Shown: positions 29,984-50,900 of the stretch, piece after piece | How the letters are laid out: each line of letters starts with the position of its first letter | Position numbering within the stretch: the stretch's first letter is position 1 | Source: Leucoraja ocellata | Taxonomy: Eukaryota | Assembly (NCBI GenBank): GCA_036785375.1 | Contig: JAWMAR010000240.1 | Span: 1,302,001 to 1,366,000, forward strand | Reading direction: 5' to 3' | Length of the DNA stretch: 64,000 nt | Program-made: the position numbers

Positions 29984-32900
29984 CTTATTTATATAGCACA
30001 TTTTCAGTCAACTTGCATTGACCCCAAAGTGCTTCACATAATTACATTACATTTACACACAGGCAAAGGTGGGTGAAGTGTCTTGCCCCAAGGACACAAC
30101 GACAGTATGCACTCCAAGCGGGATTCGAACCGGCTACCTTCCGGTCGCCAGCCGAACACTTAGCCCATTGCGCCATCTGTCGTCAAGCTTGAAAGGATAC
30201 GAGGATGTTACCAGTACTAGAGGGTCTGAGTTACAGGCAGAGGTTGAGTAGGCTGGGACTCTGTTCCTTGGAGTGCAGGAGGATGAGGGGTAATCTTATA
30301 GAGGTGTATAAAATCATGAGAGGAATACATCGGGTGGATGCACAGAGCCTCTTGCCCAGAGTAGGTGATTCAACGACCAGAGAACATAGGTTCAAGGTGA
30401 AGGGGAAAACATTTTATAGGAATCCGAGGGGTGATTATTTCACACAAAGGATGGTGGGGGTATGGAACAAGCTGCCAGATGAGGTAGTTGAGGCTGGGAC
30501 TATCCCAACATTTAAGAACCAGTTAGACAGGTGCATGGAGAGGACAGGTTTGGAGGGATATGGGCCAAACAAGGGCAGGTGGGACTGGAATTTGTGCCTT
30601 CCCCCACAGTGGGAACCATTGTGGGGGGATGTTTTTATGTTTATTGTTACATTCTTTAATGTGTCTTATCTTTATCTGTGTGTTGCATGGCAAGTCAAAT
30701 TTCACTACAATTGGTGTATGTGATAATAAATGTCCTTTGTATCCTTGTATCCTTTGTGTAGCTGGGACATTTTGGCCAGTGTGGGTAAGTTGGGCAAAAG
30801 GGCCTGTTTTCACACTGTATCACTCTATGACTCTATGATGTTTCCATCAGTCAATGACCTGTTGTAGCATTCATCATTTACCGTCCATAGATATATAGTT
30901 GAAAATTGTCACAGGCTGAAACACTATTGCAAGAGTTCCTTGTCAATTTGTGTGCACCTCATCTCTACTTCTTTTAATGCCCTTGATATCTATGTAGCCA
31001 TTGTCCAATTTGCATTATTGTTGCTATCTAAGAAGCTATTTAATATTTTTCAGCACCACTTCTTGGAATTGTTCCCAGAACCATTCTGCATCTTTATTTT
31101 TGATATATATCCGAGTGACTCGGTCAGATATGATAGATGAGAGCGAAACCTAGATATTGAACAAATCCCAACAAACATTGAATCCTTGCCAAACTTTTCA
31201 GCACAGGTCTCTCCTAGACTGCTCAAACATTGGCTGGTTACACAAATGTGTAGTGGGCATAACTTCTTGCCTCCAAAGTTACTCCTTCCCTTACCGAGCA
31301 CCATATTTATTGTACCTTTTGTCATGTCCTTGAATTTTTTATTCCTGCTCTTCTCTGAAGCCCAAGCCACAAGATCACCAGCAATTACTTCATTTTTTCT
31401 GTGGGAAACCACTAACATTGAATTGACTGTAAATTGCAAATGCTTCCAAAATACCTGACAAAGAAGCACCTGGGAAGGGAATAAGTCTGACAAATGATAT
31501 ATCTAATGTTATTAGATGAGCGATGTCGACTGGAATGTGTTCCAAGCAAGTTCCACTGACGTCAGTGAATTTGCGGAAGCATTCACGGACTTCATCGCAA
31601 CAATAACCAACAACATCGTCCTCACGGCAAGGGTAAGCACCTTTCCGAACCAAAATGCCTGGGTAGACTGGACCATTAGTGTGGCCTTGAATGCTCGCAC
31701 CGCTGCCTACAACTTGGGCCTGGCATCAGGAAACATGGACGTCTACAAGGTAGGGTCCTACCGACTGCGAAGGGCGGCGAAGGACGCAAAAAGGAGGTAC
31801 AGGGACAAGATGGAGTCACAGATGGAGCAGCAGGACACCAGATGCCTGTGACAGGGGCTACGGACTGTAACCAACTACCGGAGCACCCCACACTCATCCG
31901 CAAGTGCCGGCACCTCCCTAGCCGATGACCTGAACTCCTTTTACGCTCGTTTCGAGATGGGAAACACCACCCCAGGTCTGCCGACTATCGACAATACCGC
32001 CAGCAGGCTGGCTACCGAAGCTGAAGGGAGGAATGTGCACACATTCTCGCTGTCCGAGCACGACGTGAGGAGGGCTCTGACACGGGTGAACACGAGGAAA
32101 GCTGCAGGCCCCGATGTCATCTCGGGGCGAGCACTCAAGTCCTGTGCTACGCAACTAGCTCCGGTGCTCACTACAATATTCAACCTCTCCCTGGACAAGT
32201 CCGTGGTCCCTGCCTGCTTCAAAAAATCCATCATTGTACCGGTACCAAAAAATGCCTCCTCAGCCTGTCTGAAGAACAAATCTTGTTCTTCTTTATTTTT
32301 CTAATCTGGCTTGCTGAATATTTTTCCTCTGGGTTACAGAATGACTCCCATTTTATGCCCAACAGCATTAAAATAACTCAAAGTTAATTTCTGGTATAGT
32401 GTCAATGATTTTCTGATTATTGTAGAATGACACAACACAGAAGTAAACCAGTGAAGGAATAGGTGAAGTTTTGTGTCAAGATACATTTTCAGAATGCGAG
32501 GCAGAGTTGAGGGAAACCAGAGGTATGAAATGGTTCAGAACAAATCGGAGATCCGGATTCAATCCCGACTCCGGGTGTTGTCTGTACGTTCTCCCCGTGA
32601 CCTGTGTGGGTTTTCTCCAAGATCTTTGGTTTCCTCCCACATTCCCAAGACGTACATGTATGTAGGGTAATTAGCTTGGTGTGTGTATAAATTGACCCTA
32701 GTGTGTGTAGGAGAGTGTTAATATGTGAGGATCACTGGTCGGTGTGGACTCTGTGGCTGAAGGGCCCGTTTCCGCGCTGTATCTCTAAACTAAACTAAAA
32801 TTGGAGCCAGCACTGATGACCAAGGAAAGTTAGAACCAACAATGATCCATGGTCGAAACGTCGCCTATTCCTTTTCTCCCAAGATGCTGCCAGACCCGCC

Positions 32901-47900: not shown

Positions 47901-50900
47901 ACGGGGAGAACGTACAGACAACACTCGGAGTCGGGATCTAACCCGGGTCTCCGATTTGTTCTGAAGCATTTCATACCTCTAGTTTCCCTCACCCCTGCCT
48001 CTAATTCCGAAGAAGGGTCTCGACACAAACGTCATCAATTCCTTCACTGGTTTACTTCTGTGTTGTGTCATTCTACAATTATCAGAAAATCATTGAAACT
48101 ATACCAGAAATTAACTTTGAGCTATTTTAATGCTGTTGAGCATAAAATGGGAGTCATTTGGTAACCCAGAGGAAAGATAATCAGCAAACCAGATTAGAAA
48201 AATAAAAAAAGAACAGGATAGTTAACCGTTTACCAAACAGCATTGCTCAATTAATGATCATCAGCTGATGCAGTAAATTAATAGCATTAGAAAAATCAGG
48301 TGATGCTGATCACATCAGTGCATGTAATTGAGCAGCCGATTCAAACAGCTACACAAATTGATTAGATATGTCCCAAAACTAAAAATGTCACGCTGATTGA
48401 AATCATGCTGCTTGTCTCGCCAAAGTTCAAGGTTTAAACATATAAACATATTATGTTTCTGTTTTCTCAACTGTAACTAAATGCCGTATCAAGATTAACA
48501 TTTTTGTACAGATTTTAAATAGCACTTTTCTTTCCACAATTATATTAACAGTTCTTCCAGTTATAGTTCAATACAAACATTATAATAGCGAAGGAAAGAA
48601 CTGCAGATGCTGGTTTAAATCAACGATAGACACAAAATGCTGGAGTAACTCAGCGGGACAGGCAGCATTGCTGGAGAGAAGGAATGGGTGACGTTTCCCA
48701 TTCCTTCTCTCCAGAGATGCTGCCTGTTCCGCTGAGTTATTCCAGCATTTTGTGTCTATCTTATAATTATAGTGAATACAGTTTGTGGTAACCCATCTTT
48801 ATTCTAATAACATCAGGGCAGATTGTGAGAATTAATGGTCTACGATTCACATCTGATTGGTGTGAGCACGAGGGGAAGACCAGCTGCCCAATTTAATGTC
48901 AAACTAAGTTATTTACCAACATGAATTCATCTAAGCTCTTTATTGTGATTGCATTATGGCTCAAATGATAGATTTCATTTTTTAAATGTCAAAAGATTTA
49001 AAAATAAACCAGAGGCATATTTTTAACAGTGCACCAAATATCATGTGAATTAATTACTGTTATTTACTAACAAAGCCCCTTTTAATCGTTCTCATATTTA
49101 TCATGTCAAAGAGCACTCAGCACAATTTTATGAATTGACTTGAATGGGTCCTTCAACTGGGAATGGTTGGAAATAATTAGTCTTTTATTCTACTATTTCC
49201 ATGGGGAACGGGATCATCAGCACTCAATGTTAATGAGTCCTTTGTTTTCTCTATTTTGCAAGGTAATTTTAAATTAAATGTTTTGGTTATTAGTGGAGTC
49301 ATGCATTCACTGCCCCACCCCTTCTGCTCTCAAATACACTCACAATATGAAATGCTCAAAGATTTCCTCTCCTCTCAAGTTAAACATTCATACACTGTTC
49401 CTAAATCTCCTTTCCTGCCTTCCCTCTGGTCCCAGTCACTTACACCAGTGCTGACTCAAACTCATTTACCGGAGCTCATCTATTGCTCCTTCAATCTCTT
49501 TTGTGACTCGGACAAATTATGACACAAGGAAGCCGCCCAGCTGATTGTGTCCATGCCGATATGCAAATATCCGTCTGAAGACGGGTCTCGATCCAAAACA
49601 TCACCCATTCCTTCTCTCCAGAGATGCTGCGTTATTCCAGCTTTTTGTGTCTAGCTTCATTTCAAACCAGCATCTGCAGTTACTTCCTACCACAAAGATT
49701 CCAACTCTGGTCTTGACCATTCAACATTGCGCCCTGACTATTCAACAAACATGCTCTGATTATGTCAACGTTTCCTTTCCTCAGGTTCTGTGTCTTTGCC
49801 TTTCAAACTATTGCTGTCTGTTCCTTCTTGAAAAGTTGCATTACACACATTAGTCCTTTCCAACTCACATTCCAGCACTGCACTCCCATTTTCTCTGGAA
49901 CCCCTGAATGTGTTACCTTGACTAAAATCATGATTACGCTCCATAGGTTTGCAACCATGACGTATAGTTGTTCAGCATCCTATCCAGAGGATCAGACAAA
50001 ATTATTGCTCCTCTATCACCATTCCTTTGGTACTTGCTCAGTCTATCGCAATGCTTTATGCATGTCCGTAAAACACTCCGAAGTGTTCTTGATATCCTAA
50101 AGTACAATCTATAATTAACCTAAAATTAAAACAGAAAATGGTGGGAAATGGTGAGGATCAAGTGGGAGGGAAGAACTGAAGGGAATCCACATTAGTTTGG
50201 AAATGGTGTTAAGTTAAACTGTTGGGACTGAAGGCAGATAAATCCCCAGGGCCTGATATTCTGCATCCAAGAGTACTCAAGGATGTAGCCCTAGAAGTCC
50301 TGGATACATTGGTGATCATTTTCCAATGTTCGATAAACTCTGGATCAGTTCCTGTGGACTGGAGGGTAGCCAATGTAACTCCACTTTTTAAGAAAGGAGG
50401 AAGAGAGAAAACGGGGAATTATAGACCAACCTTACGGAACCCCACTCATGCCTGTTATTCTGAAAAGGACTTGTTAATTCCTACAATTTGCTTCCTGTCA
50501 GACAACCAGTTCTCTATCCATGTCAATACCCTTCCTCAATATCATGTGCTCTAATTTTGCACACTAATCTCTTGTGTAGGACCTTGTCAAAGGCTTTTTA
50601 CTGAAAGTAAGTATGCAGGTACAGCAGGCAGTGGAGAAAGCCAACGGCATGATGGCCTTCATTGCGAGATTGAAGATCTCGCATTGAAGGCCATTTGAGT
50701 TTAGGAGCAAGGAGGTCCTATTGCTGTTGAGGAAGGACATTGCATAATTGAGGAAGGACATTATTGCTAGTGAGGAAGTGCACCGTAGGTTCACCCGGTT
50801 AACTCTCCGGATGGCGGGACTGACATATGATGAAAGAATGGGTCGACTGGGCTTGTATTCACTGGAATTTAGGACAATTTACAATAGGTGCAGGAATAGA

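What the first reader, a model, noticed from the sequence alone, without database searches (positions are those of the whole stretch)
32280..48219. Large interrupted fold-back palindrome: inverted duplication plus central hairpin form one structure
Seen: 32280-37297 (minus the Hero insert) mirrors 48219-46024, and 45056-45340 mirrors 45643-45358. The right side is continuous from the hairpin centre (~45350) to 48219. The left side has both mirrored pieces in the right order but lacks the mirror of ~45644-46023 and has 7.8 kb of other sequence (37298-45055) instead. Divergence of the two arm pairs looks similar by eye. Inference: one ~2.9 kb-arm fold-back duplication was later stabilised by a large insertion or rearrangement and by arm-specific TE insertions. 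Much of the duplicated sequence is non-TE, so a read-through transcript would form kilobase dsRNA, as at hairpin endo-siRNA loci, piRNA clusters and A-to-I hyper-editing sites.
Basis: partly seen in the sequence, partly recalled or inferred. Interest (0 to 1): 0.7.

Follow-up and report, generated by a model that had tools for sequence, protein, structure and literature searches.

The report
Old inverted duplication tied to an inversion
This is a real but decayed inverted duplication of about 2 kb in repeat-rich DNA, most likely a neutral scar of one break-repair event that also inverted about 25 kb, with no sign of a function.

Summary
Left arm 32280-33191 plus 36222-37302 mirrors right arm 48219-46019 (168 differences in 1913 aligned bases, 8.8%). 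The hairpin 45056-45340 / 45358-45643 differs at 24 of 282 bases (8.5%). Each arm carries a private LINE insertion, so this is not an assembly artefact.

A new result concerns the left arm's outer edge. It cuts an L2-like LINE whose other half lies inverted at 57382-56097. The two pieces abut within 2 residues of reference proteins (36 of 62). This implies a ~25-kb inversion whose left breakpoint is the arm's end. A perfect 9-nt snap-back palindrome sits on that junction (one of 9 such stems in 64 kb).

The best reading is a fold-back or template-switch repair event with the left arm as the derived copy. Equal divergence and proximity favour the hairpin belonging to the same event. The missing 375-bp mirror and a 7.75-kb spacer only partly made of recognisable mobile elements count against one simple 2.9-kb-arm palindrome.

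About 30% of the arms is dispersed repeat. Substitutions show no bias that would preserve RNA pairing. Function is untested. I rate it an ordinary member of a known kind, of low to moderate interest.

The parts
31516..32277 (+). L2-like LINE piece, upstream half. It stops at the outer edge of the left arm.
   Evidence: tblastn with P0007, P0017 and P0018 matches residues 317-566 of 955 (55% identity). Relatives carry PF03372, PF00078 and PF09004. There is 1 in-frame stop and 0 frame changes in 254 codons.
32271..32291 (.). Junction palindrome: two perfect 9-nt stems and a 3-nt loop, straddling the LINE / left-arm junction.
   Evidence: It is one of only 9 perfect stems of 9 nt or more with a loop of 6 nt or less in the 64-kb window.
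32280..33191 (+). Left arm, outer segment. It mirrors 48219-47156.
   Evidence: By sub-segment, 15/200, 49/318 and 14/334 bases differ.
33192..36221 (-). Retroelement found only in the left arm: a LINE with reverse transcriptase and a C-terminal restriction-like endonuclease region (HERO-like). It is 5'-truncated and broken.
   Evidence: Pfam gives RVT_1 at 27.6 bits and zf-RVT at 19.9 bits, both below the curated cut-offs, in 2 of 10 frames. It is 80% identical over residues 79-1061 of P0075 (1069 aa), with 4 in-frame stops and 4 frame changes. The empty site is intact in the right arm.
36222..37302 (+). Left arm, inner segment. It mirrors 47152-46019.
   Evidence: 90/1061 bases differ, with 15 gap events.
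37303..45055 (.). Left part of the spacer (7,753 bp), with no mirror on the right. It is a mosaic: a MITE-like element at 37321-37555, a CR1-like 3' end on the minus strand at about 37556-37800, a MITE-like element at 41496-42271, and a CR1-like LINE on the plus strand from 43590 to about 45021. About 3.7 kb is unassigned.
45056..45643 (.). Hairpin: arms 45056-45340 and 45358-45643, with a 17-nt loop.
   Evidence: The RNA fold is -476 kcal/mol, z = -47 against 20 shuffles. No other copy is in the window.
45644..46018 (.). Right-side stretch with no mirror on the left. It holds most of a palindromic MITE-like repeat (45881-46051) that continues into the right arm.
   Evidence: (I23).
46019..48219 (-). 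Right arm, probably the template copy. It is continuous with its inner flank.
47502..47637 (-). CR1-like LINE 3' tail found only in the right arm, with a short target-site duplication.
   Evidence: It is 92.9% identical to the copy at 10311-10449.
56097..57382 (-). L2-like LINE piece, downstream half, in the opposite orientation to the upstream half.
   Evidence: tblastn with P0007 matches residues 569-952. There are 3 in-frame stops and 1 frame change in 280 codons. Dispersed-repeat copies are nested inside it.
32280..57382 (.). Block inferred to have been inverted (about 25.1 kb).
   Evidence: The two LINE halves are complementary. Of 62 relatives that match both pieces, 36 leave a gap of exactly 2 residues and 47 fall between -4 and +6.

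Best explanation
The feature is a decayed, neutrally evolving inverted segmental duplication made by break repair. It is not a mobile element and not a dedicated RNA locus.

A stretch of repeat-rich DNA (now 46019-48219) was copied in reverse orientation. The copy (now 32280-37302, less its later LINE insertion) was joined to a broken L2-like LINE. In the same event, or tightly linked to it, the block 32280-57382 was inverted.

The simplest path has three steps:
- Two breaks occurred, one inside the LINE.
- One end of the freed fragment folded back and primed copying of its own strand. This made the second arm and left a single-copy spacer.
- The fragment was rejoined in reverse. The end of the new arm was sealed to the LINE by microhomology that a short snap-back synthesis had created.

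A replicative template-switch version gives the same product. Later each arm took its own LINE insertion, and the arms drifted to 8.8% difference.

Shown: the arms, the private insertions, the complementary LINE halves, the junction palindrome, and the neutral substitution pattern.

Inferred: the order of events, the fold-back priming, and that the 285-bp-arm hairpin arose in the same episode (about even odds).
For: - Arms and hairpin are real.
- The two arms share three nested dispersed repeats at matching positions. Within those repeats the arms are 84-98% alike, against 67-89% to other copies in the window.
- Private insertions date the duplication before them: a HERO-like LINE in the left arm with an intact empty site on the right, and a CR1-like tail in the right arm.
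- The left arm is broken at both edges. Its outer edge cuts an L2-like LINE at reference residue 566. Its inner edge keeps only the last 33 nt of a MITE-like repeat that is whole on the right.
- The LINE's remainder, residues 569-952, lies on the other strand at 57382-56097. This held for 3 of 3 chosen references. Of 62 relatives matching both pieces, 36 leave a gap of exactly 2 residues.
- No homology exists between 48220+ and 57383+, so the inversion did not simply cut a longer arm.
- A perfect 9-nt stem with a 3-nt loop lies on the junction. It is one of 9 such stems in 64 kb, so the chance of one within 10 nt of a given site is about 0.003.
- Polymerase theta makes complementary tracts by snap-back copying during end joining (PMC4912351, passages read).
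- Sequenced human fold-back duplications carry single-copy spacers of 766-70,466 bp, median 3,428 bp (PMC3907307, passages read). The spacer here is 8,716 bp.
- Decay looks neutral. Transitions giving G:U on the plus versus the minus strand number 6/7, 24/23 and 24/28, and 85 of 197 differences are transversions.
Against: - There is no outgroup or second genome, so the ancestral order is inferred from one split LINE only.
- 4 of 62 relatives gave overlaps of 33-331 residues between the two LINE pieces, and 8 of 70 did not match the minus-strand piece.
- No shared target-site duplication could be found for the LINE.
- The downstream half looks more broken (3 stops and 1 frame change in 280 codons) than the upstream half (1 stop in 254 codons). 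Nested repeats explain part of this.
- If the 8.7-kb spacer is original, then a hairpin of equal divergence only 375 bp from the right arm is a coincidence.
- Microhomology at the inner junction cannot be read, because it would lie inside the homology.
- Divergence varies along the arms (4.2% to 15.4%; chi-square p = 7e-6), so one clock does not fit all segments.
- The genome-wide copy number of the arms is unknown.
Confidence: 0.55

Rival explanations
1. One fold-back palindrome had 2.9-kb arms and a 17-nt centre at about 45350. Its left arm later lost the mirror of 45644-46018 and gained 7.75 kb by insertion or rearrangement.
For: - Divergence is equal: 8.5% against 8.8%, Fisher p = 1.0.
- The hairpin sits 375 bp from the right arm inside an 8.7-kb spacer.
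- Both borders of the 7.75-kb block lie within about 35 nt of CR1-like LINE 3' ends that point outwards, as if insertions had cut the homology.
- The block holds at least four recognisable mobile-element pieces.
Against: - The 237-nt unique part of the missing mirror is nowhere in the window.
- About 3.7 kb of the block matches no element I could recognise.
- No single element with target-site duplications spans the block, and the duplication tests were uninformative.
- The minus-strand CR1-like piece at the left border is only about 250 nt, and no arm sequence follows it.
- The hairpin's confidence interval (5.5-12.4%) allows a different age.
- Kilobase spacers are the norm for fold-back duplications (PMC3907307).
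Confidence: 0.3
2. The arms are two copies of a dispersed multi-copy repeat, such as a composite or non-autonomous mobile element, or the terminal inverted repeats of one 16-kb element.
For: About 30% of the arms is dispersed repeat. Copy number outside the window is unknown.
Against: - The flanks at 32280 and 48219 share no target-site duplication.
- The L2-like LINE does not resume after either edge of the left arm.
- 70% of the arms has no third copy in 64 kb, although the short repeats nested in them have many.
- The 20 largest interior and arm frames tested gave no Pfam match, so no transposase, integrase or polymerase was found.
- The arms hold the same nested repeats in the same order, as a copied genomic mosaic would.
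Confidence: 0.04
3. The locus is kept because a read-through transcript folds into long double-stranded RNA. That RNA would feed small-RNA production (hairpin siRNA or piRNA) or A-to-I editing.
For: - The hairpin folds at -476 kcal/mol, z = -47.
- The pairs offer 2,057 matched bases and 30 perfect runs of 21 bp or more.
- Known hairpin-RNA loci do contain mobile-element fragments in their arms (PMC10317233, passages read).
Against: - Transitions show no bias towards G:U pairs on either strand, and 43% of differences are transversions.
- The arms have drifted to 8.8% difference and were interrupted by 3-kb and 136-nt insertions.
- No reading frame of the arms or hairpin has a protein relative. 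Pfam matched 0 of 10. One Atlas query gave no usable hit. One search of 1.84 billion representatives gave a single weak hit in 8 short stretches, E = 2.5e-4. So no target gene is evident.
- Rfam gave 0 matches.
- CR1-like copies lie on both strands about equally, unlike a one-strand piRNA cluster.
- Expression could not be tested.
Confidence: 0.05
4. The structure is an assembly artefact, such as a chimeric fold-back read or a mis-joined contig.
For: Inverted repeats are common sites of assembly error. The window is a single assembly with no independent check.
Against: - The arms differ by 8.8% and carry private insertions with clean empty sites.
- A read artefact would give near-identical arms.
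- The window has no gaps.
- The junction has an ordered repair signature.
Confidence: 0.02

Closest known systems
Fold-back inverted duplications with a single-copy spacer (human constitutional cases, PMC3907307)
   Same: It has two inverted arms and a kilobase single-copy spacer (8.7 kb, against the reported 0.77-70 kb). One arm is derived, and its far end is joined to unrelated DNA. A short inverted sequence lies at a junction.
   Different: The arms here are only about 2 kb and interstitial. They are fixed in a genome rather than being megabase duplications next to terminal deletions. The partner rearrangement is a 25-kb inversion. The inverted microhomology seen here is at the outer junction, not at the spacer junction, where it cannot be read.
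End joining with snap-back templated insertions (polymerase theta; PMC4912351, with PMC5068794 and PMC11724301 seen as listings only)
   Same: A few filler bases at the junction are the reverse complement of the adjoining arm, and they extend into a short match with the other end.
   Different: This is a single ancient junction. The enzyme cannot be identified from sequence.
Hairpin-RNA (hpRNA) endo-siRNA loci of Drosophila (PMC10317233)
   Same: It has an inverted repeat with a short loop (285-bp arms, 17-nt loop), and mobile-element fragments lie in and around the arms.
   Different: hpRNA loci are defined by Dicer-2-dependent small RNAs and by arm homology to a target gene. No target homology was found here, expression is unknown, and the arms decay without any bias that preserves pairing.
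Inversions flanked by inverted duplications from staggered breaks (recalled from the Drosophila inversion literature; no paper read here)
   Same: An inversion breakpoint coincides with the edge of an inverted duplicate.
   Different: In that model the two copies bracket the whole inverted segment. Here both copies lie inside it, at one end, so the model does not fit.
Large sex-chromosome palindromes (recalled; no paper read here)
   Same: Inverted arms with a spacer.
   Different: Those arms are kept above 99.9% identical by gene conversion and carry genes. These arms are 91% identical with no genes. Only one 334-bp segment (4.2% difference) hints at past conversion.

Membership tests
Fold-back inverted duplication | Two copies in inverted orientation, one of them derived | tested here: met
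   The left copy is broken at both edges, and the right copy is continuous with its inner flank.
Fold-back inverted duplication | Single-copy spacer between the arms (766-70,466 bp in PMC3907307) | tested here: met
   The spacer is 37303-46018, or 8,716 bp. It is single-copy within the window apart from dispersed repeats and its own hairpin. Genome-wide copy number was not testable.
Fold-back inverted duplication | Short inverted microhomology where the spacer meets the inverted copy | tested here: inconclusive
   Any microhomology at 37302/37303 would lie inside the arm homology. No extra match exists beyond it.
   The mirror of 45644-45880 is absent: score 16 against a shuffle maximum of 15. 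The 7,753-bp replacement is not one bounded element.
   24/282 against 168/1913, Fisher p = 1.0. Power is limited: the hairpin CI is 5.5-12.4%.
hpRNA / endo-siRNA locus | Inverted repeat able to form a long duplex | tested here: met
hpRNA / endo-siRNA locus | Arms homologous to a target gene | tested here: not met
   Pfam matched 0 of 10 frames. The Atlas gave no usable hit. The representative search gave 1 weak repetitive hit. Non-coding targets were not testable.
hpRNA / endo-siRNA locus | One primary transcript and Dicer-dependent small RNAs from the arms | not testable with these tools
   No expression data were available.
piRNA cluster | Mobile-element fragments biased to one strand (one-strand type) and piRNAs that map to the region | tested here: inconclusive
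   CR1-like pieces lie on both strands in about equal numbers. Dual-strand clusters would not show a bias, and small RNAs were not testable.
Mobile element with long terminal inverted repeats (Polinton/Maverick-like or foldback element) | Target-site duplication outside the two repeats, and element genes inside | tested here: not met
   No duplication is present at 32279/32280 and 48219/48220. Pfam matched 0 of 10 interior frames.
HERO clade of restriction-like-endonuclease LINEs (the insert in the left arm) | A reverse transcriptase followed by a C-terminal restriction-like endonuclease, and placement in the HERO clade on a reverse-transcriptase tree | tested here: inconclusive
   RVT_1 and zf-RVT are both below the curated cut-offs. 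The insert is 80% identical to a 1069-aa fish protein. The endonuclease motif was read by eye and recalled. No tree was made. That the pufferfish entries among the hits are HERO is recalled and comes from no call. The clade is described in PMC4640811.
Staggered-break inversion with breakpoint duplications | The two inverted copies bracket the inverted segment | tested here: not met
   Both copies lie within 32280-48219, at one end of the 32280-57382 block.

The most novel reading that the evidence does not exclude
The hairpin, and perhaps the outer arms, are transcribed as one RNA in the germ line. That RNA would yield endogenous siRNAs or be heavily A-to-I edited. If so, this would be a hairpin-RNA locus born from a repair scar in a cartilaginous fish. 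I found no such locus described for that group, but I did not search the literature for it specifically.
Probability: 0.05. Interest if true: 0.55.

Novelty: new member of a known kind. Interest (0 to 1): 0.25.

Why it matters
By itself it matters little. Inverted segmental duplications in repeat-rich DNA are common, and nothing here points to a function.

Its value is as a base-pair-resolved fossil of a germ-line complex rearrangement. One event seems to have joined an inversion, a fold-back-made second arm and a snap-back filler. A split LINE happens to record the ancestral order.

Such fossils show that the repair signatures known from human patients and from experiments also shape vertebrate genomes over long times. 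If the arms were found to be transcribed, the locus would become a test case for how hairpin-RNA loci are born.

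Tried and rejected
- Giant element with terminal inverted repeats. Rejected: there is no target-site duplication and no Pfam match in interior frames.
- LINE continuing after the left arm, as if the arm were a simple insertion. Rejected: nothing LINE-like follows 37303 or 48220.
- My first by-eye impression that the minus-strand LINE piece extends upstream of the break, which would make it a separate copy. 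Not supported: tblastn finds no such extension, and 47 of 62 references place the pieces end to end.
- Arm cut by the inversion, with its remainder beyond 57383. Rejected: there is no similarity between 48220+ and 57383+.
- Twin priming of one LINE. Rejected by geometry: the complementary ends face the wrong way (reasoning; the model is recalled).
- Staggered-break inversion. Rejected: the copies do not bracket the block.
- The 7.75-kb block as two long head-to-head LINEs. Rejected: only 43590-44834 matches a CR1-like protein.
- 3' transduction by the minus-strand CR1-like piece. Rejected: the right arm has no such LINE at its inner side.
- Target-site duplications of the two border LINEs. Uninformative: 1, 1 and 0 shared words, against 0.4-0.5 expected.
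- Dating the border LINE by its stops. Too imprecise: 3 stops in 214 codons, against 4 in 981 for the insert known to be younger.
- Searches that led nowhere: Rfam gave 0 matches, ARAGORN gave one tRNA-like hit outside the feature, two Atlas queries gave no usable hits, and Pfam on 50 frames outside the insert gave 1 match, ALKBH8_N in an L2-like tail at 12645-13277.
- The 'Harbinger-like' reading of frame 41492-42100 rests on recall plus the repeat ends found. No tool confirmed it.

Full report
**1. Observation**

The inverted repeats are real.
- The repeat finder on 30000-50000 lists 28 inverted pairs. The ten that build the outer arms and the three that build the hairpin are collinear.
- A self-BLAST of the window gives 32280-32857 / 48219-47638 (87.0%), 32846-33191 / 47501-47156 (95.7%) and 36216-37297 / 47158-46024 (84.5% with gaps).
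- The self-complementary hairpin is 45057-45642.
- The window has no N.
- Global alignments give K2P distances of 0.098 (outer), 0.096 (inner) and 0.091 (hairpin).
- With refined borders the arms differ at 168 of 1913 aligned bases (8.8%) and the hairpin at 24 of 282 (8.5%). Fisher p = 1.0, and the hairpin's 95% CI is 5.5-12.4%.

**2. Anatomy of the arms**

The arms are a copied piece of repeat mosaic.
- About 30% of each arm (634/2065 and 591/1993 bases) matches dispersed repeats elsewhere in the window.
- Those repeats are a ~250-nt repeat with at least 10 further copies and two copies of a ~100-150-nt, often palindromic, MITE-like repeat with 15-35 matches per position.
- They sit at matching positions in both arms. 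The remaining 70% has no third copy in these 64 kb.

Each arm has a private insertion.
- The left arm holds a 3,030-bp retroelement on the minus strand (33192-36221). The right arm keeps the empty site, 3 bases of that site are missing on the left, and there is no target-site duplication.
- Its frames give weak RVT_1 and zf-RVT matches, in 2 of 10 frames and both below the cut-offs.
- It is 80% identical over residues 79-1061 of a 1069-aa fish protein, with 4 in-frame stops and 4 frame changes.
- The C-terminal restriction-like endonuclease look, and the HERO label for two pufferfish entries among the hits, are recalled and not tested.
- HERO is the restriction-like-endonuclease clade with mostly non-specific insertion (PMC4640811, passages).
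- The right arm holds a 136-nt CR1-like 3' tail (47502-47637) with a short target-site duplication. It is 92.9% identical to another copy at 10311-10449.

These private insertions rule out a read artefact. They also show that the duplication is older than both insertions.

**3. The edges, and a result outside the finding's coordinates**

The left arm is broken at both ends.
- At its inner end it keeps only the last 33 nt of a palindromic MITE-like repeat. That repeat is whole on the right side (45881-46051) and continues there into the spacer.
- At its outer end it abuts a plus-strand frame that matches L2-type LINE proteins (70 hits; the relatives carry endonuclease, reverse transcriptase and PF09004 domains).
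- That match stops at residue 566 of the 955-aa reference P0007.

The rest of that protein, residues 569-952, is encoded on the minus strand at 57382-56097.
- The same complementarity appears with all 3 references first tried.
- Among all 70 relatives, 62 match both pieces. Of these, 36 leave a gap of exactly 2 residues and 47 fall between -4 and +6.
- 4 relatives give overlaps of 33-331 residues, and 11 give larger gaps.
- The window holds only three L2-like pieces. Chance agreement of a 3' truncation and a 5' truncation within a few residues is therefore of the order of 1% (my estimate).

The plain reading is that one LINE was split by an inversion of 32280-57382 (about 25.1 kb). The left breakpoint of that inversion is the outer end of the left arm.

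The arm was not merely cut by the inversion, because 48220+ and 57383+ share nothing.

On the junction itself lie two perfect 9-nt stems with a 3-nt loop (32271-32291). Only 9 such stems exist in the window. Part of the left stem is filler that belongs neither to the LINE nor to the arm homology. That is the pattern left by snap-back copying during end joining (PMC4912351, passages; PMC5068794 and PMC11724301 seen as listings only).

**4. The spacer and the single-palindrome model**

Between the arms lie 8,716 bp. The left 7,753 bp (37303-45055) contain:
- two MITE-like elements with ~30-nt inverted ends flanked by TAA (37321-37555 and 41496-42271; a PIF/Harbinger affinity is recalled only);
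- a ~250-nt CR1-like 3' end on the minus strand, next to the arm;
- small hairpins at 39620-39882 and 40295-40512;
- a plus-strand CR1-like LINE matching residues 436-879 of P0073 at 43590-44834, whose tail ends about 35 nt before the hairpin.

About 3.7 kb (37800-41495) matched nothing: Pfam matched 0 of 10 frames and there were no LINE protein hits.

The unique 237 nt of the right-side stretch 45644-46018 has no mirror anywhere in the window. Searches for target-site duplications of the two border LINEs were uninformative.

Three things remain in its favour: the equal divergence, the hairpin's closeness to the right arm, and both borders of the block lying at LINE 3' ends.

**5. Decay and function**

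Divergence is uneven along the arms: 4.2% in 32858-33191 and 15.4% in 32481-32800 (chi-square p = 7e-6). This is compatible with a patch of arm-to-arm conversion and with faster change in a CpG-rich repeat. That explanation is an inference.

Substitutions look neutral for pairing.
- Transitions that would give G:U on the plus versus the minus strand number 6/7 (hairpin), 24/23 and 24/28 (arms).
- Transversions number 11, 36 and 38.

A transcript could still form a duplex.
- The hairpin folds at -476 kcal/mol, z = -47.
- The three pairs offer 2,057 matched bases, with 9 + 17 + 4 perfect runs of 21 bp or more.

No target or coding origin was found.
- Pfam matched 0 of 10 arm and hairpin frames.
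- The Atlas gave no usable hit.
- The search of 1.84 billion representatives with the hairpin frame gave one weak hit in 8 short stretches, E = 2.5e-4.
- Rfam gave 0 matches.
- CR1-like pieces in the window lie on both strands in about equal numbers.

**6. Mechanism**

All junction facts fit a path with two breaks. One break is in the LINE and the other is at what is now the left end of the spacer (or at the hairpin centre).
- One end of the freed fragment folds back and copies its own strand, which makes the left arm.
- The fragment is re-inserted in reverse.
- The end of the new arm is sealed to the LINE after a short snap-back extension.

This explains:
- why the arm's end and the inversion breakpoint coincide;
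- why the left arm is broken at both ends;
- why the right arm is continuous with its inner flank.

A replicative version with three or more template switches gives the same product. It could also make the hairpin and skip the 375 bp in one go.

Human fold-back duplications have single-copy spacers of 766-70,466 bp and 2-8 bp of inverted microhomology (PMC3907307, passages), so the 8.7-kb spacer is unremarkable.

I put about 0.7 on the inversion link, about 0.55 on the fold-back or template-switch origin as stated, and about even odds on the hairpin belonging to the same event.

The age can only be guessed. At 8.8% between arms, and under an assumed neutral rate near 1e-9 per site per year, it would be tens of millions of years. 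That rate was not measured.

**7. Comparison with known kinds**

The locus works like, and passes two of three tests for, a fold-back inverted duplication. The third test, microhomology at the spacer junction, is unreadable.

It fails the tests for:
- a mobile element with long terminal inverted repeats;
- a staggered-break inversion;
- a conversion-maintained palindrome.

For hairpin-RNA loci it meets only the structural criterion. The defining small RNAs and target homology (PMC10317233, passages) were either not testable or not found.

**8. Limits**

No eukaryotic DNA collection was available. The two collections that might have held related contigs were closed. The open one holds only bacteria and archaea and was not scanned. 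As a result:
- genome-wide copy number, orthologous loci and population data stayed unchecked;
- expression stayed unchecked;
- paper supplements were closed.

The only named cartilaginous-fish hit was a little-skate protein matching a CR1-like piece. The source of the window was not sought.

Noticed in passing
33192-36221: The broken HERO-like LINE is 80% identical in protein to a characiform-fish entry (P0075). That entry's best other relatives among the 120 listed hits reach only 75%. For a window whose other repeats look like those of a cartilaginous fish, this closeness could mean horizontal transfer or a shared slow-evolving subfamily.
   Followed up: partly
48616-48769, 45881-46051, and about 20 further sites, for example 15045-15176 and 63750-63869: An abundant ~100-150-nt repeat whose full copies are themselves hairpins (73-nt arms, 89-91% complementary). 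Two copies lie inside each arm. One copy spans the inner edge of the right arm.
   Followed up: partly
37321-37555 and 41496-42271: Two MITE-like elements share ~30-nt inverted ends and are flanked by TAA. The larger one holds a 203-codon open frame that scores like a real protein in the Atlas (recognition 2802) but has no hit.
   Followed up: partly
40295-40512 and 39620-39882: Two further small hairpins lie in the spacer. One has 92-nt arms, 90% complementary, with a 34-nt loop. The other is a 263-nt palindrome of 69%. Tandem repeats follow the first at 40603-40665.
   Followed up: no
32858-33191 versus 32481-32800: Arm-to-arm difference is 4.2% in one segment and 15.4% in the neighbouring ~250-nt repeat (chi-square p = 7e-6). 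This may reflect a conversion patch and a fast-decaying CpG-rich repeat.
   Followed up: partly
45002-45053: The tail of the plus-strand CR1-like LINE is followed, after 22 nt, by an imperfect 13-14-nt reverse complement of itself, just before the hairpin's left arm. This may be a second small snap-back-like feature at a homology border. It was seen by eye only.
   Followed up: no
30193-30720 and at least 8 other sites, for example 12200-12535, 16586-17008 and 54639-55193: The C-terminal part of a CR1-like LINE protein recurs at 29-73% protein identity, on both strands. It marks at least two subfamilies with different 3' tails.
   Followed up: partly
30109-30183: ARAGORN calls a tRNA-Ala-like sequence on the minus strand, directly upstream of a CR1-like 3' fragment. 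It may be a SINE head or a pseudogene.
   Followed up: no
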